From a virus, in the IMG/VR virus record IMGVR_UViG_3300035698_008781, positions 1 through 64,000 of that record: a DNA stretch of 64,000 nt. One strand, given 5' to 3'. Under the pieces are notes generated by a model. The model was given only the letters and a program-made list of their open reading frames with translations, searched no databases and was not told the origin of the DNA. This document shows positions 4,509 through 32,309 of the stretch, one piece after another (position 1 is the first letter of the stretch; the number at the start of each line of letters is the position of its first letter). Made by a program: the position numbers and the translations under genes.

Positions 4509-5246
4509 TTAGTTATTTCTATTATTTAATTGAACTCTATTTTGTAAATTATTTTCTTTATAATCTCGATGTGCTAGTTCTACAGCACGATCTAATATTT
4601 CTGGATGAATCTCTTTATCTAATTCAGAAGTTTGTTCTTGTACAATACCATTAATTGATAAATTCATTCCTGAAAATTCAGGGTCAGCACTTAAATCAGT
4701 TAATAAAATTGGACTAGGATATTTTAAGTATCTTAAATGATAAGTATCAATTACCCTATCACTTATAACCTCAACAACATTATTTAATGAAGAATTATAA
4801 TCTAATCTCCAAGCTAAATATTTATAAGGTCTTTTAAAAGGATTATTAGTTTTTTCATTAAACTCATCTAAAGTTACAGGTATAATATCTATTTCAATAC
4901 TACAATTGTTTTTAGTGTAAATACCTTTCTCGTATTTTATTAAAAATACATCTTTAGGTATTGTAAAAAACCTTGAGTTTAATTTATTAGTTATTCTATC
5001 AGTGTTAACAGCAAAAGATGTTGATTTAAAATCTTTAATTAATTCTTTTAAATCAGCTCTTCTTTTATCAGAACCATCAAAACCTTTTTGATACTTATTT
5101 GCTAATCCATTATATTCTTTAACTATTTCTAATTGTGCTTTAGTTAAATAAAATGACTTTTCATATTTATCTAATCCTGGAGCAGAATTTGAAGATATAT
5201 TATCATAAAGAATATCAAACTCTAAGTTAAATTCATTAGTAGTCAT
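4509..5246 (-). CDS. tail ring/adaptor protein (crAss gene 73/74-like)
   Basis: N-terminus MTTNEFNLEFDILYDNISSNSAPGLDKYEKSFYLTKAQ and C-terminal HPEILDRAVELA typical of crAss ring proteins. Confidence 0.7.
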   Translation of the reverse strand: MTTNEFNLEFDILYDNISSNSAPGLDKYEKSFYLTKAQLEIVKEYNGLANKYQKGFDGSDKRRADLKELIKDFKSTSFAVNTDRITNKLNSRFFTIPKDVFLIKYEKGIYTKNNCSIEIDIIPVTLDEFNEKTNNPFKRPYKYLAWRLDYNSSLNNVVEVISDRVIDTYHLRYLKYPSPILLTDLSADPEFSGMNLSINGIVQEQTSELDKEIHPEILDRAVELAHRDYKENNLQNRVQLNNRNN

Positions 5247-6106
5247 TATTTAGTATTTTTAACTCTAGCTTCAATTAAATCACGAACTTCTTGATTTTTT
5301 GGATCAATTAAATATTTAACAGCATTTTGTAAAGAAGCAATTTCCCCTTCTTTAGCTAATGTTAATCCATCAACTGTTTCATATTTACCATTCTTTTTAA
5401 CAACTATTCCTACATTTTCAGCAAGAGCAATTAATGTTTTAGTTTCAAAATTTGGATCTTCAATTAAATTTAAGAAATCTTTAGTTCTTGAGTCAACTAA
5501 TGTCTCAACTTCAGTATTAATAAATTTCATTGTTGAATTATCAGATAATTTTTTACCACTCATTAAATATATAATTGAAACAAGTACATCTCTGTTATCT
5601 TCAATCTTATAGTATTCTTTCCAAGCAGTTTTAATTAAATCTAATTTTTTAGATCTATCTTTTAATTCTTCACCTGTTCTAGTCATGTAGAATTGATAAG
5701 TACCTTTGTTAGTTCGTTTATATTCTTCTAAACTAGGTGCAATAACATCTTGCCATGCTAATAATATTTTATATTTTAAATAATCTTCAGGTATAGATAA
5801 ATCTAATATTGTATCAAGTTTTTCTAATGCTACATTTTTACTGTGCCAAAAATCACTATAAATAGAAAGATTAACTCCTCTAAAATGACCGTTTTCAAAA
5901 TATTCTTTTTCTTCTGTAGTAAGAACGTTTTTTAAACCACCACCTCTTTGTAAAGGTACACAAAACTTACGTGTTGCACCTTCAACCATTCCTCCTGAAA
6001 TTACATGTGATTCAGATACATCTGCAGCTAAACCTTTATTTCTTTTAATAAACTTAATTGTTACCTTTTCTTGTGGTAACATAAATCCTTCTTTAACTTC
6101 TCCCAT
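5246..6106 (-). CDS. conserved crAss-like protein downstream of MCP (gene 75-like)
   Basis: 286 aa; synteny; LDLSIPEDYLKYKILL motif. Confidence 0.65.
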   Translation of the reverse strand: MGEVKEGFMLPQEKVTIKFIKRNKGLAADVSESHVISGGMVEGATRKFCVPLQRGGGLKNVLTTEEKEYFENGHFRGVNLSIYSDFWHSKNVALEKLDTILDLSIPEDYLKYKILLAWQDVIAPSLEEYKRTNKGTYQFYMTRTGEELKDRSKKLDLIKTAWKEYYKIEDNRDVLVSIIYLMSGKKLSDNSTMKFINTEVETLVDSRTKDFLNLIEDPNFETKTLIALAENVGIVVKKNGKYETVDGLTLAKEGEIASLQNAVKYLIDPKNQEVRDLIEARVKNTK

Positions 6107-6127
6107 TGTTAATTTTATTTATGTTTT

Positions 6128-6160
6128 AAAAAATAAAGGGTGTTTTTGGGCACACCCTTT
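6128..6160 (-). terminator. intrinsic terminator after MCP
   Basis: AAAGGGTGT/ACACCCTTT hairpin plus U-rich tail on the minus strand. Confidence 0.7.
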
Positions 6161-6172
6161 AAAGCCTATTTA

Positions 6173-7693
6173 TTAATATTGGTATATAATACTTGGTATT
6201 AATGATGCAGTTCTAGAAGGGTCTTTAACCATCGCACCTTGCATACAGTAAGCTGTAATTGTAGCACTATCTTCCATTCTACCCATATTTCCTGAACCTC
6301 TTTCTCCTGTAAAAGGATTTCTGAAACCTGCTTGATATCCTCTAATTTCTTCGTTATCTTTAACCATTACTTTTTGAATATTAGGCTCTTCAGTAGATCC
6401 AATATATAAAATATCATATCTGTAAGATTCAGCAACACCACCATCTGGGTGCATAATTTTATTACGAACTTTGTCATCATACATTGGGTCAACCTCAACC
6501 ATTACTTTGATAGAATTCGCAAATTCATATTCTGTAAATTGGTAACCCGCTTTGAATGAGTTAGAATGTAATTGAGAACTTGTTTTCTGAACAACAGCTG
6601 GGTTGTTTTGAGAAAGTTCTTTCCAAGCTTGACCTTCACGATTAATAGATTGAGAGAATTGTTTAGCTCCTCTTTCACCAGTACGTAAAATAAATATTCT
6701 ATCTTTAAAGTCTAATTTACCTTCTGATAATTCATGTAACATATCTTCAAGAATTCTCAATGAGAACGTGTTATATGTAACAATGTTTGAAACTTCCATT
6801 TGTTCACGAATACCTGAACCTGATTCAATAGAGAATCCTGATTTACCTATATTTAAGAAGTTACCACTTTCATCTCTGTTTGATTTACCAAACATAATGT
6901 TAAATGCTTTTAAACGAGATAAATGTTGTTCAAATCTCCAATAGATTTCTTGCATCCAAGTGTTAGAAGTTCTAACTTTACCTGCATTATCTAATGATTC
7001 AATTTTTGAATAATAAACATCTGTTGCGTTTAATTTACAATTAATCATATTACCTGGAACAGTTGTTTCAACACGTAATTGTGACATTGTATTTTTCAAT
7101 GTGTAAGGAGAACTGAAGTTAATATCAGAACCTTTATTAGACATTGTTCTTTCAACAGGAGATCCTTCAATAGAGAATCTTTCTCCTACTAAAAGTTCAC
7201 TACCAGGAACACCCTGATAAGTTTCAGGTCCACCCCATACTTCAGCTGTATAAACATAAGGTCCATTTGGTCCTTCTGATCTTGGATCAGCTAAGATACG
7301 ATATTGATAAATATCTGGTTTTGAACCTGCAATTGTATGTACATCAGAAAAGTATTTTTCTGCGAACACCAATTCTATTTCGCTACGATTAGCTCCAACA
7401 TTTACACTAGCATCAGTTACTACAGCACCTTCAAATCTTGCTTCAGCAAGTGGAATATTTCTTTCGTGAGAACCTACCATTTTCCATGTAAAGTCACCCT
7501 CATCTTCTAAATATTTCACTGGAAACATATTAAGTACAGTATCTAAGTTTTTCATCCCTGCCTTAGCAAGTAACACCCCAGTAATCTGAGATGCAACCAT
7601 TGGTCTAGTAGCATAGATCTGACCTAAGTGATTTCTAGTTGTTAATCCTGACCAGTATTGTCCTTTGGTCATTACAAATTTACCTACACTCAT
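6173..7693 (-). CDS. major capsid protein
   Basis: 506 aa; WSGLTTRNHLG N-terminus, GSGIREQ and HPDGGVAESYR motifs of crAss-like MCPs; strong codon bias. Confidence 0.9.
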   Translation of the reverse strand: MSVGKFVMTKGQYWSGLTTRNHLGQIYATRPMVASQITGVLLAKAGMKNLDTVLNMFPVKYLEDEGDFTWKMVGSHERNIPLAEARFEGAVVTDASVNVGANRSEIELVFAEKYFSDVHTIAGSKPDIYQYRILADPRSEGPNGPYVYTAEVWGGPETYQGVPGSELLVGERFSIEGSPVERTMSNKGSDINFSSPYTLKNTMSQLRVETTVPGNMINCKLNATDVYYSKIESLDNAGKVRTSNTWMQEIYWRFEQHLSRLKAFNIMFGKSNRDESGNFLNIGKSGFSIESGSGIREQMEVSNIVTYNTFSLRILEDMLHELSEGKLDFKDRIFILRTGERGAKQFSQSINREGQAWKELSQNNPAVVQKTSSQLHSNSFKAGYQFTEYEFANSIKVMVEVDPMYDDKVRNKIMHPDGGVAESYRYDILYIGSTEEPNIQKVMVKDNEEIRGYQAGFRNPFTGERGSGNMGRMEDSATITAYCMQGAMVKDPSRTASLIPSIIYQY

Positions 7694-20185: not shown

Positions 20186-20371
20186 ATGAAAACAATAGTA
20201 ACTTGGCTACACAGTATATTAACTTTCTTTAGTTTTTTTATACTACTATCATTTTTAAGCAATTCTAATACAACAAAAGACCAAGTTTTAATTGCCTTGA
20301 GTATTTATAATTATTGTCTTGTTATTGCAATAGTATTAATTAACTCTACAATAAAAGATGAAAACAAATAA
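20186..20371 (+). CDS. small membrane protein
   Basis: two hydrophobic helices. Confidence 0.5.
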   Translation: MKTIVTWLHSILTFFSFFILLSFLSNSNTTKDQVLIALSIYNYCLVIAIVLINSTIKDENK

Positions 20372-20645
20372 AGATAACTACTTTGAAGTAGAATACAATG
20401 GACAAAGAGGATTTGTTCTTGTTAGTGATGAAGAAATTAAAAATGATGTAACTTGTTTATATCATAATAGGTTTGGGAGTTTAATTATTTGTACTTCTAA
20501 AAAGACAAAAAACGGTTTTGTATACCAAGAAGAAAATGAAACTTATGGACATCCTGATGGGGGAATAACTCCTTTAAAAAATGAAATATCAAAAATCATA
20601 GGTTCTACATTTGAATTAGAAGGTGTTCCTTTAATTGTTTTGTAA
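20358..20645 (+). CDS. hypothetical protein
   Basis: 95 aa; LVSDEEIK...KIIGST...LEGVPLI pattern common in Bacteroidota phages. Confidence 0.55.
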   Translation: MKTNKDNYFEVEYNGQRGFVLVSDEEIKNDVTCLYHNRFGSLIICTSKKTKNGFVYQEENETYGHPDGGITPLKNEISKIIGSTFELEGVPLIVL

Positions 20646-20761
20646 AATGAATCAAAATCATTCAAACAATCATAAATTACTTACAAATATACTACTTATT
20701 GTAGCATTAATATGTATAGTATTAACAATAATTAACTAATATTAACAATTAAATTACAAAA

Positions 20762-20820
20762 AGATGTTTAACAGCAAACAAAAACAATTATTTAGCAAAA
20801 ATAAAAAAACACAAATATCT
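20762..20820 (+). promoter_or_regulatory. ACAGCAA stem module over the start codon of the TROVE-like gene (putative autoregulatory site)
   Basis: AGATGTTT-A-ACAGCAA...AAATATCT: 8-bp stem (one GU) containing the ATG, in the same register as the array modules. Confidence 0.6.
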
Positions 20821-22428
20821 GGTAATGTATTTATAACAGAAGCTACTAAATCTACATCAGTAACAAGAAGTGAAAACGGTGCTAAAAAATATACTACAAC
20901 AGGTAGTGAATTTGTGGATCAATTTAGTAATTTAGGTAACTATAAAACACCTAGATCATTCGCAGATATATCAAGAGATATGTCGACATTATGGGCTATT
21001 AATCCTTTTATGACAGTTGCATTTACATTATTCATTAGAATAATCACTAGAACAACTATGTTATTTACAGGAAAAAAAACTGAAACTACTCAAAGAGGTG
21101 CTGGATTAAGGTATGAAGGTATAATGAGAATGATGTGGTTACATATATATCATAAAGATATATTTTGGAATAACATTCATCTATTTATATCAGCAGGTTC
21201 TTGGAAAGATATTATTATGATGTTATCATATGATTTACAATATAATGGTTGGGATAAACGACAATTAGATTGGAATCAATTTGGTAAATTAATATTATCT
21301 GGATTAGAAAATCCAAATCATTCTGAATTGATTAAAAAGTATTTACCTCAAATTAAATCAAATAATAAATGTAATACATTAGAAGCTCAAGCTGATAATA
21401 TAATTGCTAAATGGATTTGTTCATTATTATTTGGTGAAAAAGATAATGCAAATACTTATAAAAAATATAGAATGTTAAAATCTAAAGGTACAGCTCACCA
21501 ATGGCAACAATTAATATCACAAAGTAAACACAACCTTGTTGATTTTAATACAGTACATGGTAGAGCATTATCATTATTAGTATCTGGTAAGTATTTAACT
21601 AATCAAGGCTTAGAATCTAAATATCAAGAATTTATTGAATCTAAACCAATTGCTAAATATACAGGATATGTACATGAATTATTTGAAAAAATAACTCATT
21701 CAATGCCTAAATATCAAATAGATACTTTAAACTCACAATTTAAAGGTTTAGTAGAAACCGCTAAAACAAATGCTACTACAACTACAGGAATGATAGTTGT
21801 AAGAGATACTTCAGCTAGCATGAGTTCTTTAGCAATAGGTACTAAAACGTCTTGTGGTAATGTAGCAAAAGCATTAGCATTATTCTTTAATGAAATGTTA
21901 CCTGATGGTGTATTTAGTAATAATTGGATAGAATTTAATTCAACTGCTAAAATGTATCAATGGAATGGTTCAACACCTTATGAAAAATGGGTAAATGATA
22001 GATCAAGTTATATTGGGGATACAAACTTTCAATCTGTAATAGATTTATTATGTTCTATTAAGTCTAAAGATATTGATGAATCAGAATTTCCATCAGGTAT
22101 TATTTGCATTAGTGATATGGAATTCAATCCATCATCATTAAATCAAACAAATGTTTCAAGTGCTTTAGATAAATTAAGAGGGGTTGGTTTTTCAGACCAA
22201 TATATTAATAATTTTAAAATAGTACTATGGGATTTAGGAAGAAAAAATAAACAAACTAAGTTTGAAACATATGATAATGTTAAAAATACATTCTATTTTA
22301 GTGGATTTGATGGTTCAATAATGGCATTCTTAACAGGTGTTGAAGGTGCTGAAATGACTCCTCAAAATGCTCAAGAATTATTTAATGCTTCAATGGATCA
22401 AGAATTAATGCAAATGATTCAATTATGA
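20764..22428 (+). CDS. TROVE/Ro60-like RNA-binding protein with C-terminal vWA domain (DUF2828-like)
   Basis: 554 aa; SENGA..Y..TG...VDQF N-terminal motif, GSWKD, KYLP, MIDAS-like VVRDTSASM, ISDMEF, IVLWDL, FSGF. Confidence 0.8.
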   Translation: MFNSKQKQLFSKNKKTQISGNVFITEATKSTSVTRSENGAKKYTTTGSEFVDQFSNLGNYKTPRSFADISRDMSTLWAINPFMTVAFTLFIRIITRTTMLFTGKKTETTQRGAGLRYEGIMRMMWLHIYHKDIFWNNIHLFISAGSWKDIIMMLSYDLQYNGWDKRQLDWNQFGKLILSGLENPNHSELIKKYLPQIKSNNKCNTLEAQADNIIAKWICSLLFGEKDNANTYKKYRMLKSKGTAHQWQQLISQSKHNLVDFNTVHGRALSLLVSGKYLTNQGLESKYQEFIESKPIAKYTGYVHELFEKITHSMPKYQIDTLNSQFKGLVETAKTNATTTTGMIVVRDTSASMSSLAIGTKTSCGNVAKALALFFNEMLPDGVFSNNWIEFNSTAKMYQWNGSTPYEKWVNDRSSYIGDTNFQSVIDLLCSIKSKDIDESEFPSGIICISDMEFNPSSLNQTNVSSALDKLRGVGFSDQYINNFKIVLWDLGRKNKQTKFETYDNVKNTFYFSGFDGSIMAFLTGVEGAEMTPQNAQELFNASMDQELMQMIQL

Positions 22429-22432
22429 TATA

Positions 22433-22590
22433 AGGTGTAGAATCTGCAAATCATACACAAACAAATATGATAAGCAACAAGCACTACTAAGTATAATAAA
22501 AATAATAATAATTTTAAACTTTAACACTACACCTGTTAAATTCAAAGTTTAATTGTAAAAGTTATAATAAAAATACAATTAGTAGTGCTT
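22433..22590 (+). ncRNA. pseudoknot-like structured RNA preceding the array
   Basis: AGGTGTAG (22433-40) pairs with loop CTACACCT (22527-34); AAGCACTACTAA (22479-90) pairs with TTAGTAGTGCTT (22579-90). Confidence 0.55.
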
Positions 22591-22596
22591 TTAATA

Positions 22597-23031
22597 AGAA
22601 TACTAACAGCAATTTATAAAGATCAATTTTTTAACTTGAAACCTTATATGTATTCTGATAAAATGATTAATAGCACTCTTACGGTGAAATTGGTAAACAC
22701 AGGTGTCTAAAAAAATAATCATTTAATAAATAGTCTAACAGCAATTTTAATAGCTTTTCATGCCGTAAACAGTAGTTCGATTCTGCTAAGACATATAGAT
22801 ATGTCTTTCGTCTAGAGGCTAGGACAACGTAAAAAATAGACTATTGATAAGAAGTGTAACAGCAAATTTAAACTTTTTTAAAAATAAAAAAACAAATACA
22901 CTTCTAATAAGATTAGCAACAGCAAAATAACAAACATCAAATTTTTACTTTGACCAGTTATGCTAATCTGATAAAGTCACTAACAGCAACTCAAACAATT
23001 TTTATAGGAAAAAAGAAAAAAATAGTGACTT
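22597..23031 (+). ncRNA. array of six Y-RNA-like stem modules with an ACAGCAA motif
   Basis: modules 22597-656, 22661-724, 22729-845, 22850-905, 22910-969, 22974-23031; each has a different perfectly complementary closing stem; 4-nt RATA spacers. Confidence 0.85.
22753..22829 (+). tRNA. circularly permuted tRNA-Glu(UUC)-like sequence inside module 3
   Basis: GC-TTTTCAT-GCCGT, AAAC, T arm AGTAG-TTCGATT-CTGCT, acceptor AAGACAT-A-TAGAT-ATGTCTT, TC, D arm GTC-TAGAGGCTAG-GAC, A, ACG. Confidence 0.8.
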
Positions 23032-23064
23032 GAGTAAAATATTAACTAACTAATAATAATTATT

Positions 23065-23379
23065 ATGAAAACAATAAAATGTTTTAAAAAAAAAGGTTAT
23101 AAAAAACAACCTACTATTAATGAAATAATTAAATCATTAGAGGAACAAAAAATATATGATCAACTAAGATTAGTTCAACAAACTGAACTTGGTAGAATAA
23201 AGTATATATTATCACAAGGTCGTACATTATGTCTAGTACATGTAGCTTATTTAAGAGATTTATATTGGAGCTTTATATCTAATAATTTTAGATTTGAAGA
23301 TAAGATACAAAAAAAAGAAAAAGAAAAAAGAGATAATATTCATCCTGGAATGAAGTTATTTTTATCATTATCGCAATAG
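23065..23379 (+). CDS. hypothetical protein
   Basis: 104-aa ORF. Confidence 0.5.
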   Translation: MKTIKCFKKKGYKKQPTINEIIKSLEEQKIYDQLRLVQQTELGRIKYILSQGRTLCLVHVAYLRDLYWSFISNNFRFEDKIQKKEKEKRDNIHPGMKLFLSLSQ

Positions 23380-23568
23380 TATAATGTAGGTAAATATAAG
23401 CCAACAAAAGCAAAAGCTTGGGAAGAAAAATAGAATAATAAGTTTTGGTTCTATTTATATTTATAACAACTTTATAGAGAGGTTAAATTATCTCTTGTAG
23501 TGATAGTAGATATGGGTGATTATATGGCGACAGTCACCCATACTATTATTAATTTTTAAAAACAAAAC

Positions 23569-23968
23569 GGGGCAGACTGGTTTTGACAGGTGATTAATAG
23601 CAATAATAATCAGTGAGAGAGATAACTCTAAACTAAGGTGAATTTAATTAAACGGAAAAGATAATGATCAAATCGTAGCAAATATGAATGTAGTATATAA
23701 CATCTTAAATGGTGGTACTGAAGTATCAAAAGATTTAAATACTATTATGGTAGAAGAAGATTTATTGATGGCAGCATAATATTGCCCAAAGCTAGTTGAG
23801 GTAATACTAGTAAATTTATTTAAGATTTCTTCATTAGATTAAATGAAGTGGTGGAAGTTAACCTACTGGTTGACCCTTTCTAACGTAAAGAGTTTAAAGA
23901 AACGTGAAACTGTATAAATTATTATTGTAAACATTGCATGGACGAGGGTTCGAGTCCCTCCTGCTCCA
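23569..23968 (+). ncRNA. ssrA: tmRNA
   Basis: GGGGCAG/CTGCTCC-A acceptor with G3-U, GGTTTTGAC D-loop analogue, GGACGAGGGTTCGAGTCCCTC T arm, tag reading frame 23654-23779 ending LLMAA*; CCA not encoded. Confidence 0.9.
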
Positions 23969-23985
23969 CAACTAATTCTTAAATT

Positions 23986-24195
23986 ATGAATATTATAGAA
24001 ATTAAAGTAGTAACTATTAGTGAAGATCCTGGTAATCCAGGTTTCATTAAAACACAAACTGTTGGTCGACTTGACAAAAGAGTCAATAGACAACAAGATT
24101 TTGTGAGATGGTATTTAGAAATTCATTCTCAACATGGTAATGTTAATTATGAAGTTTTAGATAAGCTAGAAATAGCTAAAGATAGGGTCTTATAG
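23986..24195 (+). CDS. hypothetical protein
   Basis: 69-aa ORF; its stop overlaps the 5' end of the tRNA. Confidence 0.45.
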   Translation: MNIIEIKVVTISEDPGNPGFIKTQTVGRLDKRVNRQQDFVRWYLEIHSQHGNVNYEVLDKLEIAKDRVL

Positions 24196-24257
24196 CTCAG
24201 GGGTAGAGCAGGGTGCTCATAACACTCAGGTCGTAGGTTCAAATCCTTCTAAGACCA
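24186..24257 (+). tRNA. tRNA with CAT anticodon (Ile2 or elongator Met; not initiator)
   Basis: GGTCTTA/TAAGACC acceptor, GCTC/GAGC D stem, GGGTG-CTCATAA-CACTC, GTAGG-TTCAAAT-CCTTC; G1-C72 paired, C4-G69. Confidence 0.85.
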
Positions 24258-24397
24258 CTAATTATTTGATTAATAATTAGTTAGTTAGTTGTAAATGTGA
24301 GTGAAAACTGCGATCATTCCGTGGATGTAGCTCACATTTATTTTAATCATTAATAAAAAACAAAAATTATGGAAGAATTAGTAAAACAAAAACTTAA

Positions 24398-24748
24398 ATG
24401 AAAAAATTATTCTTAATATTATTATTGTTTATTACAGTAATGATGCATTCTCAAACTTATGAGTTTAAATCAAACCAACAAACATATGTTTCTTTAAAAG
24501 ATAGTAAAAATGCTTCTGAAAAAAGAAATGATATAAAATTTATATTTATTACAGATGCTTCTGTAATAAAGTTTGTATTAAATTCAGAAGTTATAGTATT
24601 TACTGTATTAAGTGTTAAAGAAACTAATATTTCTTATATATATAATATAATAAATGAAGATATATTATCACAAATTATAGTGTATAAAAATATTAAACGT
24701 ATTACTTTAAAAGGTGATATAGGTCAACTAAGTTGTCAAATTGAGTAG
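24398..24748 (+). CDS. secreted protein with signal peptide
   Basis: MKKLFLILLLFITVMMHSQ, a Bacteroidota-type signal peptide with cleavage before Q. Confidence 0.6.
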   Translation: MKKLFLILLLFITVMMHSQTYEFKSNQQTYVSLKDSKNASEKRNDIKFIFITDASVIKFVLNSEVIVFTVLSVKETNISYIYNIINEDILSQIIVYKNIKRITLKGDIGQLSCQIE

Positions 24749-28732: not shown

Positions 28733-29404
28733 ATGAAACCTAATATAAATGACAATATATGTGGTATTTACTGCATAAAAAACAAAGTAAACAATAAAGT
28801 ATACATAGGAAAATCTATCAATATTAAAAGAAGAATTTACCAGCATTTATATGATTTAAAAAATAAAAAAATTAAGAATGAAAACTCACATTTTTTAAAC
28901 GCATGGTATAAATATGGTAAAGAAAACTTTGAATATTTTATATTAGAAGAATTAGAGTTAAACGATTCTATTTGTAAAGATAGAGAGTTATATTGGATAA
29001 CAAAATATAAATCTACAAACAGAAAATTTGGTTATAATTTAAGGATGGATAGTTCCACTCAAATGATTGTGCATAAAGAAACTTCAGAAAAAATATCTAA
29101 AAGACTTAAAAAAGAATGGTTTCAAGGTATTAGAAGTGATCATGGTGATAAATTATCATTAAATTGGTCAACTACTCCTGAAAGAAATAAAAAGCAATCT
29201 AAAATTATGACTAATAATTTAACAATCTGGTCTTATAATATATACGATTTAAATATGAAATTTATTGAAAACTGTAAATATAAAAGGTTAAATGAACTAG
29301 GTTTAAAAGGTTCAATTACTTCATTTTATGGTTTTGAAAAAAGAAATAGTATAAAAACTATTTGTAAGTGTAAAAATTATTTTGTTGAAAGAATTAAAAT
29401 TTGA
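28733..29404 (+). CDS. GIY-YIG homing endonuclease (intron-encoded)
   Basis: GIYCIKNKVNNKVYIGKS, R..QH, E..W, GYN; lies between the R and S elements. Confidence 0.9.
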   Translation: MKPNINDNICGIYCIKNKVNNKVYIGKSINIKRRIYQHLYDLKNKKIKNENSHFLNAWYKYGKENFEYFILEELELNDSICKDRELYWITKYKSTNRKFGYNLRMDSSTQMIVHKETSEKISKRLKKEWFQGIRSDHGDKLSLNWSTTPERNKKQSKIMTNNLTIWSYNIYDLNMKFIENCKYKRLNELGLKGSITSFYGFEKRNSIKTICKCKNYFVERIKI

Positions 29405-31235: not shown

Positions 31236-32309
31236 AAATATTTAGTATAATATAAAAACTATTATAAAATATGCGTTAATAAAATAGGATTTTGGAAATT
31301 AATGTTGTGTATTTGTTAAAAATATATAAAATGAAACAAATTTCACAAAATTTAAAAAAATCAGGTATTTATTGTATTATAAATATAAATAATAATAAAA
31401 GATATATTGGAAGTTCCAAAAATATATATCAACGATTATTAAAACATCGTTCTTTGTTAAGAAATAATAAACATGAAAATTTAAAACTTCAAAATTCTTG
31501 GAATAAATATTTAGAAAATCAATTTGATTTTTATATTTTAGAATATTGTGATGAAAGTTTATTAGAAAAAAAAGAACAATTTTATATTGATACATTAAAT
31601 CCTGAATTAAATATTACATTAATTGTTGAAAGAAATATATTAAGTAAAGAATCTCGGATTAAACAATCTGAAACTAGAAAAAGAAAAATACAATCTGGTG
31701 AAATTAAACTATCTTGTGAAAAAATTATATATCAATATAATTTATCAGGTGAATTTATGAAAAAACATGAAAGTATTAAAAAAGCTTGCTTAGAACTTAA
31801 TATAAGTGCTTCTACAATATGTAGATATTTAAATGGTACATATAAAAAAGGAGGTAATTATTTATGGTCTTTAGATTTTAAATCTAAATTAGAACCGTAT
31901 GTTAAACCTAAAAGAAATATGAAAAAATTATACAAAATTGTACAAATTATAGATTATTTAAATAATAATATAATAATTAAAGAATTTAATTCTTTAAAAG
32001 AATGTGCTTTATTTTATAATATTTTTTCATCTGTTGTATCAGAAACTATAAAAAATAAACGTAAATTTAAAAATAAGTATTTAATTATACTAAAACCTGC
32101 CTAAATATAATAGTAATATTATGTTATGCACATCTGAATATCGGTGAAGACTAAGTTTTAATAATAATTAAAATATGTTAATACCGAGGCATAGGGAGTA
32201 AAGTTCCAGCCGTAGAGACTAGATGCAGATGCTCCTACTTGAAAAAGAGGATGAAGATATAGTCCAGACCACAAAACATTAAATTGGTAGTGAAAACTAT
32301 AGTGGTACG
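31236..32309 (+). mobile_element. group I intron in the helicase gene
   Basis: exon ends AGGU; IGS CCTGCCT at 32096-102; CATCTG/CAGATG P3, AATATCGGTGAA, AATACCGAG, GTAGAGACTA, AAGATATAGTCC; terminal G; splicing gives ANSKVGKT. Confidence 0.9.
31331..32104 (+). CDS. GIY-YIG homing endonuclease with NUMOD1-like C-terminal repeats
   Basis: SGIYCIININNNKRYIGSS; IYQYNLSGEF..HESIKKA; likely ATG at 31331. Confidence 0.9.
   Translation: MKQISQNLKKSGIYCIININNNKRYIGSSKNIYQRLLKHRSLLRNNKHENLKLQNSWNKYLENQFDFYILEYCDESLLEKKEQFYIDTLNPELNITLIVERNILSKESRIKQSETRKRKIQSGEIKLSCEKIIYQYNLSGEFMKKHESIKKACLELNISASTICRYLNGTYKKGGNYLWSLDFKSKLEPYVKPKRNMKKLYKIVQIIDYLNNNIIIKEFNSLKECALFYNIFSSVVSETIKNKRKFKNKYLIILKPA

What the first reader, a model, noticed from the sequence alone, without database searches (positions are those of the whole stretch)
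22729..22845. Complete circularly permuted tRNA-Glu(UUC) held inside module 3
Seen, in order: GC | anticodon loop TTTTCAT | GCCGT | AAAC | T arm AGTAG-TTCGATT-CTGCT | acceptor 3' strand AAGACAT + A | linker TAGAT | acceptor 5' strand ATGTCTT | TC | D arm GTC-TAGAGGCTAG-GAC | A | ACG. Joining the final ACG to the initial GC gives ACGGC, the exact partner of GCCGT. All tRNA positions are therefore present, with the break inside the 5' anticodon-stem strand and the acceptor end closed by a loop. The D arm and UUC anticodon independently match bacterial tRNA-Glu. YrlA RNAs, as I recall them, have a similar T-acceptor-D permutation but lack an anticodon arm; here it is retained. Inference: it is either a non-chargeable full-shape decoy or a precursor that is ligated and reopened into a functional tRNA.
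Basis: seen in the sequence. Interest (0 to 1): 0.85.

Follow-up and report, generated by a model that had tools for sequence, protein, structure and literature searches.

The report
Sealed tRNA-Glu mimic on phage Ro60-like RNA
A phage small-RNA module holds a complete but rearranged and sealed copy of tRNA-Glu, anticodon loop included, next to a gene for a Ro60-like RNA-binding protein; it looks like an undescribed kind of tRNA look-alike, probably used as bait or tether for a host factor that reads tRNA anticodons.

Summary
Every segment sits at the stated coordinates. The re-joined sequence (22801-22829 + 22753-22795) is called tRNA-Glu(UUC) by ARAGORN and folds into a perfect cloverleaf, while 0 of 2000 shuffles give a tRNA.

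The module (22729-22845) is one unit of a tandem array of "handle" RNAs, each a closing stem, an ACAGCAA box and an A-rich tail. The array follows a 554-aa gene whose model folds like Ro60 (TROVE ring + vWA).

Related phages carry homologous modules. A covariance model finds 61, all on the gene's strand. The 2-bp anticodon hairpin and the 3-bp split stem stay paired (90% and 94%) through compensatory changes.

A wider scan gives at least 51 distinct modules with the same junction. They show 21 different anticodon triplets, R37 in 51/51 and A38 in 49/51. Acceptor stems are mostly 7 bp, capped by 4-8 nt loops, and rarely followed by CCA.

My reading is a non-chargeable, full-shape tRNA mimic displayed on a Ro60-like particle, close to YrlA but keeping the anticodon arm that YrlA lacks. 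Bait or tether for an anticodon-reading host factor is inferred, not shown. Opening by RNase P cannot be excluded.

This scan noted the handle-RNA system before in at least 13 other genomes. I found no paper describing it.

The parts
20764..22428 (+). Gene for a 554-aa Ro60-like protein (helical TROVE-like ring plus C-terminal vWA with a DxSxS MIDAS motif); Pfam DUF7788, relatives also DUF2828
   Evidence: Pfam DUF7788 at 1.4e-10. phrog_850 'RNA-binding protein' at 7.5e-29. AlphaFold model pLDDT 82. Best PDB matches are phage phiLo Ro60/TROVE 9kop and 9l5y, Ro60 1yvr/1yvp/2i91 and Rsr 2nvo. D348, S350 and S352 are invariant in A1.
20762..20820 (+). Handle module (8-bp stem + AACAGCAA) lying over the gene's own start codon
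   Evidence: Module finder. The same arrangement occurs in L003 (3999-4057) and L004 (3990-4048).
22597..23031 (+). Tandem array of stem-closed handle modules separated by GATAA-type linkers. Module 3 is the finding; the others run 22597-22656, about 22658-22727 (variant box), 22850-22905, 22910-22969 and 22974-23031.
   Evidence: Inverted repeats I6-I10 and I14, each with a different arm sequence, and direct repeats D1-D4. Module finder.
22729..22737 (+). 5' arm of the closing stem of module 3; pairs with 22837-22845
   Evidence: Inverted repeat I8. Paired in both the MFE and the centroid fold.
22738..22744 (+). ACAGCAA box of the handle
   Evidence: Sequence. Shared by the array modules and by modules in related loci.
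22745..22752 (+). A/U-rich linker between the box and the anticodon hairpin
   Evidence: Sequence. Equivalent linkers in alignment A4.
22753..22763 (+). Anticodon hairpin: GC (nt 30-31), 7-nt loop TTTTCAT (nt 32-38, anticodon TTC at 22757-22759), GC (nt 39-40)
   Evidence: ARAGORN cloverleaf of the re-permuted sequence. This helix is 89.9% paired with changes on both sides in A4.
22764..22766 (+). CGT (nt 41-43), the 3' strand of the split part of the anticodon stem; pairs with ACG 22827-22829
   Evidence: This helix is 93.8% paired with changes on both sides.
22767..22770 (+). 4-nt variable loop AAAC
22771..22787 (+). T arm (AGTAG / TTCGATT / CTGCT)
   Evidence: 98.3% paired.
22788..22807 (+). 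Acceptor helix sealed into a hairpin: 3' strand 22788-22794, A73 at 22795, loop TAGA 22796-22799, T22800, 5' strand 22801-22807
   Evidence: Inverted repeat I13, 9 nt and 100% complementary. Paired in MFE and centroid folds. No CCA follows A73.
22808..22826 (+). T8 C9, D arm (GTC / TAGAGGCTAG / GAC) and A26; a Glu/Gln-type D arm
   Evidence: D-arm motif found only in Glu and Gln among 974 tRNAs. D stem 98.8% paired.
22827..22829 (+). ACG (nt 27-29), the 5' strand of the split part of the anticodon stem
22830..22836 (+). A-rich 3' tail of the handle (TAAAAAA)
   Evidence: Sequence. TAAA/TATA-type tails are commonest in 51 related modules.
22837..22845 (+). 3' arm of the closing stem

Best explanation
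Module 3 is a small structured RNA unit. It is probably cut from, or works within, a transcript that also carries the upstream gene and the other array modules.

It has two functional parts. The first is a 'handle': a 9-bp closing stem, an ACAGCAA box and an A-rich tail. This handle is shared by all array modules and is the likely binding site of the Ro60-like TROVE-vWA protein encoded just upstream.

The second part is a cargo that is a whole tRNA-Glu(UUC). It is circularly permuted, so the handle leaves the body from the 5' strand of the anticodon stem, between nt 29 and 30. The acceptor end is sealed by a tetraloop.

The anticodon stem is rebuilt from a 2-bp hairpin stacked on a 3-bp helix. 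The RNA should therefore fold into the tRNA L-shape with an authentic, exposed anticodon loop, while having no end that can be charged.

Proposed action: like YrlA on Ro60, the tRNA-shaped cargo recruits or titrates a host factor to the Ro60-like particle. Because the anticodon loop and the Glu-type D arm are both kept, that factor would read tRNA-Glu identity. Candidates are an anticodon-directed nuclease, GluRS or a wobble-base modification enzyme.

Shown here: the anatomy, its conservation and covariation, and the link to the gene. Inferred: protein binding, the fold in vivo, and the bait or tether role. I put a bait or decoy role at about 0.35-0.4, inside an overall 0.7 for 'sealed handle-tagged tRNA mimic of a Ro60-like RNP'.
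For: Anatomy
- The re-permuted sequence is called tRNA-Glu(ttc), and its MFE fold is a cloverleaf.
- 0 of 2000 shuffles give a tRNA.
- The D-arm motif is specific to Glu/Gln among 974 tRNAs.

Protein
- The model's best PDB matches are phage and cellular Ro60/TROVE structures, aligned over about 540 columns at probability 1.0. The C-terminus matches vWA domains.

Link between gene and handle RNAs
- In 60 related loci there are 170 handle modules downstream on the gene's strand, against 20 in the reverse-strand control.
- A module overlaps the gene's start codon here and in L003 and L004.
- All 61 covariance-model hits lie on the gene's strand.
- Starting from the RNA alone, 13 of 51 loci hold the gene in the fetched stretch, always on the same strand. 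A further 22 of 35 hold it elsewhere on the contig.

Anticodon arm kept by selection
- In A4 the hairpin is 89.9% paired and the split stem 93.8% paired, with changes on both sides at every pair. No shuffle of 500 reaches the observed pairing or covariation, and slid controls pair at 33-51%.
- Explicit variants include GA/TCCGT/ACG in L001, AGG/CCTCG/CG in L007 and GGT/ACCCC/GG in L049. L011 and L028 have complete 5-bp hairpins.
- 19 modules pass the ARAGORN re-permutation test, against 1-8 after shuffling the 5' region.
- In 51 distinct modules sharing the GC|loop|GCCGT...ACG junction, R37 is 51/51, A38 is 49/51 and G32 never occurs. None of these was required by the search pattern. There are 21 different anticodon triplets.
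- Bodies up to 89% identical carry different anticodons.

Sealed acceptor
- 40 of 51 have 7/7 bp, cap loops are mostly 4-8 nt, and CCA follows N73 in 5 of 51.

Precedent
- YrlA is a permuted, closed-acceptor tRNA mimic that acts as the effector-binding domain of a Ro60 RNP (PMC4201824; 10.1101/312249).
- Phage phiLo Ro60 with its Yrl RNAs engages host PNPase (PMC12135203).
Against: - There is no expression or binding data of any kind.
- The nearest-neighbour MFE of the native module prefers an alternative 8-bp helix between the anticodon-loop region and the D loop: -22.7 against -18.3 kcal/mol for the tRNA-like fold. That helix cannot form in the L001 homologue, by my own reading of its sequence.
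- Alignment A4 was fitted to the model's structure and contains some ordinary tRNAs and YrlA-style modules, so its pair counts lean towards the structure.
- The junction stem ACGGC/GCCGT is nearly invariant in the largest subgroup. Within that subgroup, support for the stem is conservation rather than covariation.
- Four phage records rated at least 90% complete carry such a module with no detectable homologue of the protein and no Pfam TROVE match. The pairing is therefore strong but not obligatory.
- The protein does not reach Pfam TROVE by sequence.
- No partner factor is identified. The anticodons of these modules show no relation to the canonical tRNAs encoded nearby (15 of 46 observed, 13.1 +/- 2.3 expected).
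Confidence: 0.7

Rival explanations
1. RNase P opens the module into a two-piece tRNA. RNase P cuts 5' of nt 1 (22801), the 3' side is trimmed to A73, and CCA is added. The two pieces stay joined by the acceptor, anticodon and closing stems. The result has a free CCA end and a real anticodon arm, so GluRS could charge it. It might then act as a handle-tagged tRNA, or be protected from exonucleases.
For: M. smegmatis YrlA, the YrlA with a 7-bp acceptor stem, is cleaved by RNase P in vitro and in vivo, gains CCA, and both halves stay bound to Rsr (PMC4201824). Module 3 has a perfect 7-bp acceptor stem plus A73. 40 of 51 related modules have 7/7 bp, and 5 of 51 have CCA right after N73, which by my rough estimate is more than base composition predicts. 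Many such modules sit inside phage tRNA gene arrays, which are processed by RNase P. The Glu-type D arm and the UUC anticodon are both retained; from memory, these are the main GluRS identity elements.
Against: The cap is only 4 nt once A73 pairs with T22800, so there is neither a leader nor a free 3' tail. A handle, and probably a bound 60-kDa protein, branching from the anticodon stem makes use on the ribosome unlikely (inference). Class-B anticodons neither fill gaps in nor avoid the neighbouring canonical tRNA set.
Confidence: 0.13
2. The anticodon hairpin is a neutral relic. The module works like any YrlA-type or plain handle RNA, as a scaffold, nuclease-resistant cap or PNPase tether. 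The loop is simply what remains of a recently captured tRNA-Glu gene.
For: Arrays mix cargo types freely. There are YrlA-style bodies broken in the anticodon loop (L001:5904, L003:5909, L004:5874, L024:4609), T-arm-only cargo, unpermuted tRNA bodies (L040:5528-5588) and cargo-free modules, so an anticodon loop is clearly not needed for a handle RNA as such. Module 3 still resembles a genuine tRNA-Glu closely, as expected for a young capture.
Against: 51 of 51 R37, 49 of 51 A38, no G32 and a constant 7-nt loop across modules whose bodies share a median of 71% identity. Compensatory changes occur in the 2-bp hairpin. Many anticodons sit on one conserved junction. A decaying relic would lose loop length and these positions first.
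Confidence: 0.12
3. It is a true permuted tRNA gene. The ends at ACG and GC are trimmed and ligated into a circle, and the acceptor cap is removed to give a normal linear tRNA-Glu, as in Cyanidioschyzon merolae.
For: The gene order (3' half, linker, 5' half) is that of permuted tRNA genes (Soma et al. 2007 and Chan et al. 2011, as listed in PMC4090602). The rejoined sequence is a flawless tRNA.
Against: The ends are embedded in a conserved handle that non-tRNA modules share. I saw no bulge-helix-bulge motif at the junction. No RNA ligase, RtcB or splicing endonuclease appeared among the 27 ORFs scanned. The break lies inside a helix, a position not reported for permuted tRNAs as far as I recall. 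No paper on permuted tRNA genes in phages was found.
Confidence: 0.03
4. It is a chance resemblance or a non-RNA feature, such as DNA repeats or protein-coding sequence.
For: The region is AT-rich, where short stems arise easily. The shuffle control still passes 1-8 modules. Small ORFs of 40-41 aa elsewhere in the intergenic region can be drawn.
Against: 0 of 2000 shuffles give a tRNA. Homologous modules recur on the gene's strand in dozens of phages, with covariation. No ORF of 40 aa or more covers 22729-22845.
Confidence: 0.01

Closest known systems
YrlA (Y RNA-like A), the tRNA-mimic partner of bacterial and mycobacteriophage Ro60/Rsr (Chen et al. 2014, PMC4201824; Wang et al. 2018, 10.1101/312249)
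   Same: The domain order is T arm, closed acceptor hairpin, D arm, which amounts to a circularly permuted tRNA. The tertiary-contact nucleotides are kept. It is encoded next to, and on the strand of, a gene for a Ro60-fold protein. The protein-binding module leaves from the anticodon-stem side. Several RNAs occur per locus.
   Different: YrlA 'lacks the anticodon loop'; here a 7-nt UUC loop and a full 5-bp stem are kept as a side branch at a three-way junction. The protein-binding part is a stem plus ACAGCAA, not the GNCGAAN0-1G helix, and there is no CGAA anywhere in the module. The protein belongs to DUF2828/DUF7788 and does not hit Pfam TROVE. No Rfam family matches the module, even at E up to 10. 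Up to six modules stand in direct tandem.
Deinococcus radiodurans Yrn1 (Y RNA of Rsr)
   Same: It is a Ro60-bound RNA that has been modelled with a T arm and an 'anticodon arm' with a 5-bp stem (PMC4201824).
   Different: The Yrn1 loop has 6 nt, not 7. It has no V region and no proven D arm. The orientation is different, with the stem-loop between the T and D arms in the anticodon position rather than the acceptor position. No tRNA finder would call it. Here every tRNA position is present.
Permuted tRNA genes of Cyanidioschyzon merolae, other algae and Thermofilum (Soma et al. 2007; Maruyama et al. 2010; Chan et al. 2011; cited in PMC4090602)
   Same: The 3' half is encoded upstream of the 5' half, with a short linker between the acceptor strands. 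Rejoining gives a standard cloverleaf.
   Different: Those genes give functional tRNAs through a circular intermediate made by the splicing endonuclease and ligase of eukaryotes and archaea. This one is in a phage, its ends are locked into a conserved protein-binding handle, its break lies inside the anticodon stem, and its acceptor cap is a tight tetraloop.
Thermus phage phiLo Ro60 with Yrl1/Yrl2 (PMC12135203; PDB 9kop, 9l5y)
   Same: This is the best structural match of the window's protein. It is phage-encoded, has partner RNAs encoded beside the gene, and is proposed to capture a host enzyme (PNPase).
   Different: phiLo Yrl RNAs were identified through a CGAA motif, and that paper does not use the term tRNA-like. 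Sequence identity of the proteins is about 14% in the structural alignment.
Dictyostelium Class I RNAs (Rfam RF01414)
   Same: A short stem joins the 5' and 3' ends, followed at once by a conserved box that contains ACAGCAA, and then a variable region (PMC7919456). Three neighbouring array modules give sub-threshold matches (29.9, 28.0 and 18.8 bits; gathering score 41.5).
   Different: Module 3 itself is not matched and no module reaches the gathering score. Class I RNAs are eukaryotic, 42-65 nt long and reported as unique to dictyostelids. Their known direct binder is an RRM protein. This resemblance is a lead only.

Membership tests
Canonical tRNA gene (Rfam RF00005 / ARAGORN) | Contiguous cloverleaf in genomic order, detectable by tRNA finders | tested here: not met
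   ARAGORN and Rfam find only tRNA-Met 24186-24258 and the tmRNA in the window. The native module gives 0 genes.
Canonical tRNA gene (Rfam RF00005 / ARAGORN) | All four arms, a 7-nt anticodon loop with U33 and R37, and a T loop TTCGA after re-joining | tested here: met
   Re-permuted 22801-22829 + 22753-22795 is called tRNA-Glu(ttc), 72 nt. Its MFE fold is a cloverleaf.
Canonical tRNA gene (Rfam RF00005 / ARAGORN) | A free acceptor end that can carry CCA | tested here: not met
   The acceptor strands are joined by A73 plus TAGAT and no CCA is present. Whether RNase P opens it is not testable here.
YrlA / Ro60-associated Y RNA | tRNA-like domain in the order T arm, closed acceptor-like hairpin, D arm | tested here: met
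   description of YrlA.
YrlA / Ro60-associated Y RNA | Ro60-binding helix with the GNCGAAN0-1G motif | tested here: not met
   No CGAA occurs in 22729-22845. The shared box is ACAGCAA. The motif is defined in PMC4201824.
YrlA / Ro60-associated Y RNA | Encoded within about 4 kb of a TROVE-domain Ro60 gene, on the same strand | tested here: inconclusive
   The module lies 300 nt downstream of a gene on the same strand whose model folds like Ro60. By sequence, though, that protein hits DUF7788 and not Pfam TROVE.
YrlA / Ro60-associated Y RNA | Match to a curated Y-RNA/YrlA covariance model | tested here: not met
   No Rfam family matches the module at gathering score or at E up to 10. None matches homologous modules in 17 loci.
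YrlA / Ro60-associated Y RNA | Anticodon stem runs on into the protein-binding stem, with no anticodon loop | tested here: not met
   A 7-nt loop on a 2-bp hairpin is retained. Published YrlA lacks it.
Permuted tRNA genes (C. merolae type) | 3' half upstream of 5' half, rejoining into a standard tRNA | tested here: met
Permuted tRNA genes (C. merolae type) | Maturation through a circular intermediate into a functional, chargeable tRNA | not testable with these tools
   This needs RT-PCR or RNA sequencing. No RNA run holds the sequence. No ligase or endonuclease candidate was found in the 27 ORFs scanned.
Handle RNAs (closing stem + ACAGCAA) of phage DUF2828/Ro60-like genes; a grouping known only from this scan's own notes | Closing stem of 7-9 bp whose sequence differs between copies, ACAGCAA directly 3' of the 5' arm, and an A-rich tail before the 3' arm | tested here: met
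Handle RNAs (closing stem + ACAGCAA) of phage DUF2828/Ro60-like genes; a grouping known only from this scan's own notes | Co-occurrence with the Ro60-like gene, on the same strand | tested here: met
   170 modules downstream against 20 in the control. 35 of 48 RNA-anchored contigs that were searched hold the gene. There are exceptions.
Dictyostelium Class I RNA (RF01414) | Score at or above the Rfam gathering threshold | tested here: not met
   Module 3 is not matched. Neighbouring modules reach 18.8-29.9 bits against a threshold of 41.5.

The most novel reading that the evidence does not exclude
Phage Ro60-like particles carry a swappable panel of sealed tRNA look-alikes that each show an authentic anticodon loop. 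Here it is Glu UUC; elsewhere Gln, Lys, Asp, Asn, Tyr, Arg, Met, Thr, Pro and Ser. They would act as baits that capture or neutralise host enzymes attacking or reading tRNA anticodons, for example anticodon nucleases of anti-phage defence. This would be an RNA-based counter-defence with a programmable specificity loop. A variant of the idea is that RNase P opens them into chargeable, handle-tagged tRNAs.
Probability: 0.3. Interest if true: 0.9.

Novelty: new variant of a known kind. Interest (0 to 1): 0.72.

Why it matters
Published Y RNAs of the YrlA type mimic the tRNA body but have lost the anticodon loop, and their binding partner is still unknown. Here the whole tRNA is kept, including a loop that stays canonical (7 nt, R37, A38) while its triplet varies between phages.

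That points to a partner that reads the anticodon. It turns 'what does the tRNA-like domain of a Y RNA bind?' into a testable question with a built-in specificity handle: swap the triplet and see what is pulled down.

It also adds a distinct RNA-protein pairing to the Ro60 world, namely a stem-ACAGCAA handle with a DUF2828/DUF7788 protein of Ro60 fold. This pairing is common in uncultured phages and present in at least one cultured cyanophage (Leptolyngbya phage Lbo-JY46), yet absent from Rfam and from the papers I could search.

If the bait idea holds, it would be a new way for phages to answer tRNA-targeting defence.

Tried and rejected
- First collection scan with a 14-base junction pattern. 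All 80 fetched loci were chance matches, and the covariance model found none. It was replaced by a longer pattern.
- Public sequencing runs. No RNA holder is listed; the holders are DNA contigs from salt-lake and seawater metagenomes. Laying four runs gave only short fragments, with none across module 3, no variants and no joints. This says nothing about expression.
- Promoter and terminator scan of 20300-24400. There were 43 promoter-like sites against 31.5 expected, and no terminator between the gene and the array. It is uninformative in 26% GC DNA.
- Thermodynamic folding of the native module did not return the D and anticodon helices. I set the alternative helix aside because the L001 homologue cannot form it.
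- I tested whether module anticodons match or complement the canonical tRNAs encoded nearby. There was no signal: 15 of 46 observed against 13.1 +/- 2.3 expected.
- Pfam scans of 27 ORFs looking for RtcB, RNA ligase, kinase-phosphatase or CCA-adding enzyme found none. The hits were replication and nucleotide-metabolism genes, GIY-YIG endonucleases, a Band-7 protein and ATP-grasp/amidoligase genes.
- Sequence search of the protein against PDB chains gave nothing useful; only the fold search did.
- The protein atlas returned only viral DUF2828/DUF7788 clusters and no information on eukaryotic relatives.
- A link to Dictyostelium Class I RNAs was considered. It is kept as a lead only, because all matches are below threshold.
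Full report
**What is there**

The window is the first 64 kb of a 78.8-kb, 25% GC phage contig. It encodes a tmRNA (23569-23969), one canonical tRNA-Met (24186-24258), a family-B DNA polymerase and nucleotide-metabolism genes.

ACG (22827-22829) plus GC (22753-22754) is the perfect complement of GCCGT (22762-22766).

One small addition: A73 can pair with T22800. The acceptor helix is then 8 bp, closed by the tetraloop TAGA.

**Is it more than chance?**

- Its minimum-free-energy fold is a cloverleaf at -20.0 kcal/mol.
- None of 2000 dinucleotide-preserving shuffles gives any tRNA call, and the native order gives none.
- The D-arm motif (TCGTCTAG.GG) occurs in 6 of 38 Glu and 2 of 30 Gln tRNAs, and in no other isotype, among 974 canonical tRNAs that ARAGORN finds in the fetched loci. 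The D arm and the UUC anticodon therefore point independently to a Glu/Gln-type tRNA.

**Context**

The module is the third unit of a tandem array (22597-23031). Each unit is a 7-9 bp closing stem, an ACAGCAA box directly after the 5' arm, a variable cargo and an A-rich tail before the 3' arm. The arm sequences differ from unit to unit but stay complementary.

A further unit lies over the start codon of the upstream gene (20762-20820).

That gene (20764-22428, 554 aa) hits Pfam DUF7788 and phrog_850 'RNA-binding protein'. Many of its at least 1892 relatives also carry DUF2828.

An AlphaFold model built on 26 sequences (pLDDT 82) has as its best PDB matches:
- the TROVE domain and Ro60 dimer of Thermus phage phiLo (9kop, 9l5y);
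- Xenopus and human Ro60 (1yvr, 1yvp, 2i91, 9nen);
- D. radiodurans Rsr (2nvo).

These matches run over about 540 aligned columns at probability 1.0, followed by vWA domains. The MIDAS residues D348, S350 and S352 are invariant. The protein is thus Ro60-like by fold, although it does not reach Pfam TROVE by sequence.

**Comparative evidence**

The protein led to 85 IMG/VR loci.

- In 60 loci with full flanks, 170 handle modules lie downstream on the gene's strand, against 20 in a reverse-strand control.
- Cargo varies. Some modules have none, some a T arm only, some an unpermuted tRNA body. Some hold YrlA-style permuted bodies broken in the anticodon loop. Others, like module 3, are permuted bodies that keep the anticodon hairpin.

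Re-permuting the cargo and asking ARAGORN for a tRNA across the junction succeeds for 19 modules, against 1-8 when the 5' region is shuffled. The junction is not always at 29/30:
- 2+3 splits: window, L001, L024, L025, L046, L059, L079;
- 3+2 splits: L007, L021, L033;
- a 4+1 split: L042;
- whole 5-bp hairpins broken at 26/27: L011, L028.

The stems also differ: GC/GCCGT/ACG, GA/TCCGT/ACG, AGG/CCTCG/CG, AGC/GCTCG/CG, ATC/GATCG/CG, GGT/ACCCC/GG. This is covariation in both the hairpin part and the split part.

A covariance model built from seven such modules finds 61 matches in 79 sources, all on the gene's strand. On that alignment:
- 96.2% of cells are paired;
- the 2-bp hairpin is 89.9% paired and the split stem 93.8%, with changes on both sides at every pair;
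- no shuffle of 500 reaches the observed values;
- slid controls pair at 33-51%.

The caveat is that this alignment is fitted to the model and includes some ordinary tRNAs and YrlA-style modules. In a cleaned subset of 22 handle-tagged modules with a 7-nt loop, 18-20 of 22 pair at each of the five positions.

**The anticodon loop is maintained, not decaying**

I scanned IMG/VR for handle box + GC + N-T-N5 + GCCGT + T loop. It gave 51 distinct complete modules with a D arm, N26 and ACG.

- Position 37 is a purine in 51/51, position 38 is A in 49/51, and position 32 is never G. The pattern required none of these.
- The triplet takes 21 values (UGU, UGG, GUC, UGA, UCU, UUU, UCA and others).
- Bodies up to 89% identical carry different triplets, often synonymous ones such as UGU/GGU or UGG/CGG.
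- The UNGG loops carry G37 and the UGU loops carry A37. From memory, this fits natural tRNA-Pro and tRNA-Thr.
- Acceptor stems are 7/7 bp in 40 of 51. They are closed by caps of mostly 4-8 nt, and CCA follows N73 in only 5 of 51.

Starting from the RNA alone, 13 of 51 loci hold the Ro60-like gene in the fetched stretch, always on the module's strand. A further 22 of 35 hold it elsewhere on the contig. Four near-complete phages have no detectable homologue and no Pfam TROVE match.

**How it most likely works**

Shown:
- a conserved, covarying, sealed and circularly permuted tRNA with an intact anticodon arm;
- its fusion to a handle shared by neighbouring RNAs;
- its genetic linkage to a protein with the Ro60 fold.

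Established elsewhere:
- Ro60 proteins bind Y RNAs, whose second domain tethers an effector.
- In YrlA that domain is a permuted tRNA mimic with a closed acceptor and no anticodon loop (PMC4201824; 10.1101/312249).
- A phage Ro60 with its Yrl RNAs engages host PNPase (PMC12135203).

Inferred: the handle binds the 554-aa protein. The cargo folds into an L-shape in which a 2-bp hairpin stacks on the 3-bp ACG:CGT helix to rebuild the anticodon stem, and the handle leaves from the hinge side. The exposed UUC loop, together with the Glu-type D arm, lets the particle engage a factor that reads tRNA-Glu identity.

Candidate factors are anticodon-directed nucleases of host defence, GluRS and wobble-uridine modification enzymes. 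Many of the triplets seen across the family (Glu, Gln, Lys, Asp, Asn, Tyr, Arg, Met) are, from memory, classic targets of anticodon nucleases. That makes a bait or decoy role attractive, but nothing here tests it.

**Rivals**

- *RNase P opening.* The 7-bp acceptor stem is the feature that made M. smegmatis YrlA an RNase P substrate followed by CCA addition. An opened, two-piece and possibly chargeable form cannot be excluded. The tight cap and the lack of CCA argue against it as the general rule.
- *Neutral relic.* This reading is weakened by the loop statistics above.
- *True permuted tRNA gene matured through a circle.* This is unlikely. The ends are locked in a handle shared with non-tRNA modules, no ligase or endonuclease was found, and the break lies inside a helix.
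- *Chance.* This is excluded.

**Comparison with what is known, and novelty**

The module works like YrlA but fails YrlA membership on three points: it has no GNCGAA motif, it matches no Rfam model, and it keeps the anticodon loop. It also differs from D. radiodurans Yrn1, whose modelled 'anticodon arm' has a 6-nt loop in another orientation.

I found no paper on permuted tRNA-like genes in phages of this kind, and none on DUF2828 as an RNA-binding Ro60 relative.

This scan's own notes record the handle-RNA/Ro60-like pairing in at least 13 other genomes and the array in this genome. Those are AI notes. I re-derived the points I use here.

I class the finding as a new variant of a known kind, a Ro60/Y-RNA-type tRNA mimic. 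The new element is a retained, canonical and apparently swappable anticodon arm.

Noticed in passing
window 22597-22656, 22850-22905, 22974-23031: Three cargo-free array modules give sub-threshold matches to Rfam Dicty_Class_I_RNA (28.0, 18.8 and 29.9 bits; gathering score 41.5). The shared architecture is a terminal stem followed by a box containing ACAGCAA. Class I RNAs are reported as unique to dictyostelids, and three of their four reported binding proteins are not named in the paper I read (PMC7919456). Whether dictyostelids have a DUF2828 protein that binds them was not tested.
   Followed up: partly
window 20762-20820: A handle module (8-bp stem + AACAGCAA) overlaps the start codon of the Ro60-like gene. 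The same arrangement occurs in L003 and L004. It could allow the protein to regulate its own translation.
   Followed up: partly
window 22658-22727: The second array unit is closed by a 12-nt inverted repeat but has ATAGCAC in place of ACAGCAA. Its cargo contains a D-arm-like stretch (GGTGAAATTGGTAAACAC) without a T arm.
   Followed up: no
window 22433-22590: Between the gene's stop codon and the array lies a region of interleaved inverted repeats (AGGTGTAG/CTACACCT and a 17-nt pair at 22479-22495/22574-22590). It is conserved almost base for base in L002 and L003, and it starts with a variant box (ATCTGCAA).
   Followed up: no
window 23569-23969 and 24186-24258; L004, L007, L079: A phage tmRNA and canonical tRNAs lie just downstream of the array. 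tmRNA genes recur next to the Ro60-like gene and its array in L004, L007 and L079. ARAGORN reads the tag here as 22 residues ending in AA.
   Followed up: no
L002 about 5870-6480, compared with L003: In L002 the first array modules present in its close relative L003 are replaced by about 700 nt carrying a reverse-strand ORF, while the flanks stay nearly identical. This looks like a mobile-gene insertion into the array. The window itself carries two GIY-YIG endonuclease genes (28733-29404 and 31292-32104).
   Followed up: no
L040:5489-5602, L049:4744-4867, L013:2293-2407: Some handle modules carry an unpermuted tRNA body (D arm, complete anticodon arm, T arm) in which the closing stem of the handle takes the place of the acceptor stem. 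Rfam tRNA matches L040:5528-5588 over model positions 6-65 only.
   Followed up: partly
L086 (Leptolyngbya phage Lbo-JY46, PP438436.1) 5160-5510: A cultured cyanophage has the Ro60-like gene (48.8% identity, annotated as hypothetical) followed by five unannotated ACAGCAA handle modules, one with a T-arm cargo. It is a possible experimental system.
   Followed up: partly
loci L208, L229 and others: Seven of the 51 junction-type modules show triplets beginning with A (AGG, ATG, AGT, ACA, ATT, ATC). From memory, these are rare or absent as bacterial anticodons, so the displayed triplet is not always that of a natural tRNA.
   Followed up: no
records G007, G021, G024, G029 (contigs of L222, L271, L285, L303): Four phage records rated at least 90% complete carry a junction-type handle module but have no detectable homologue of the Ro60-like protein and no Pfam TROVE match. 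The partner may be host-encoded or too divergent to detect.
   Followed up: partly
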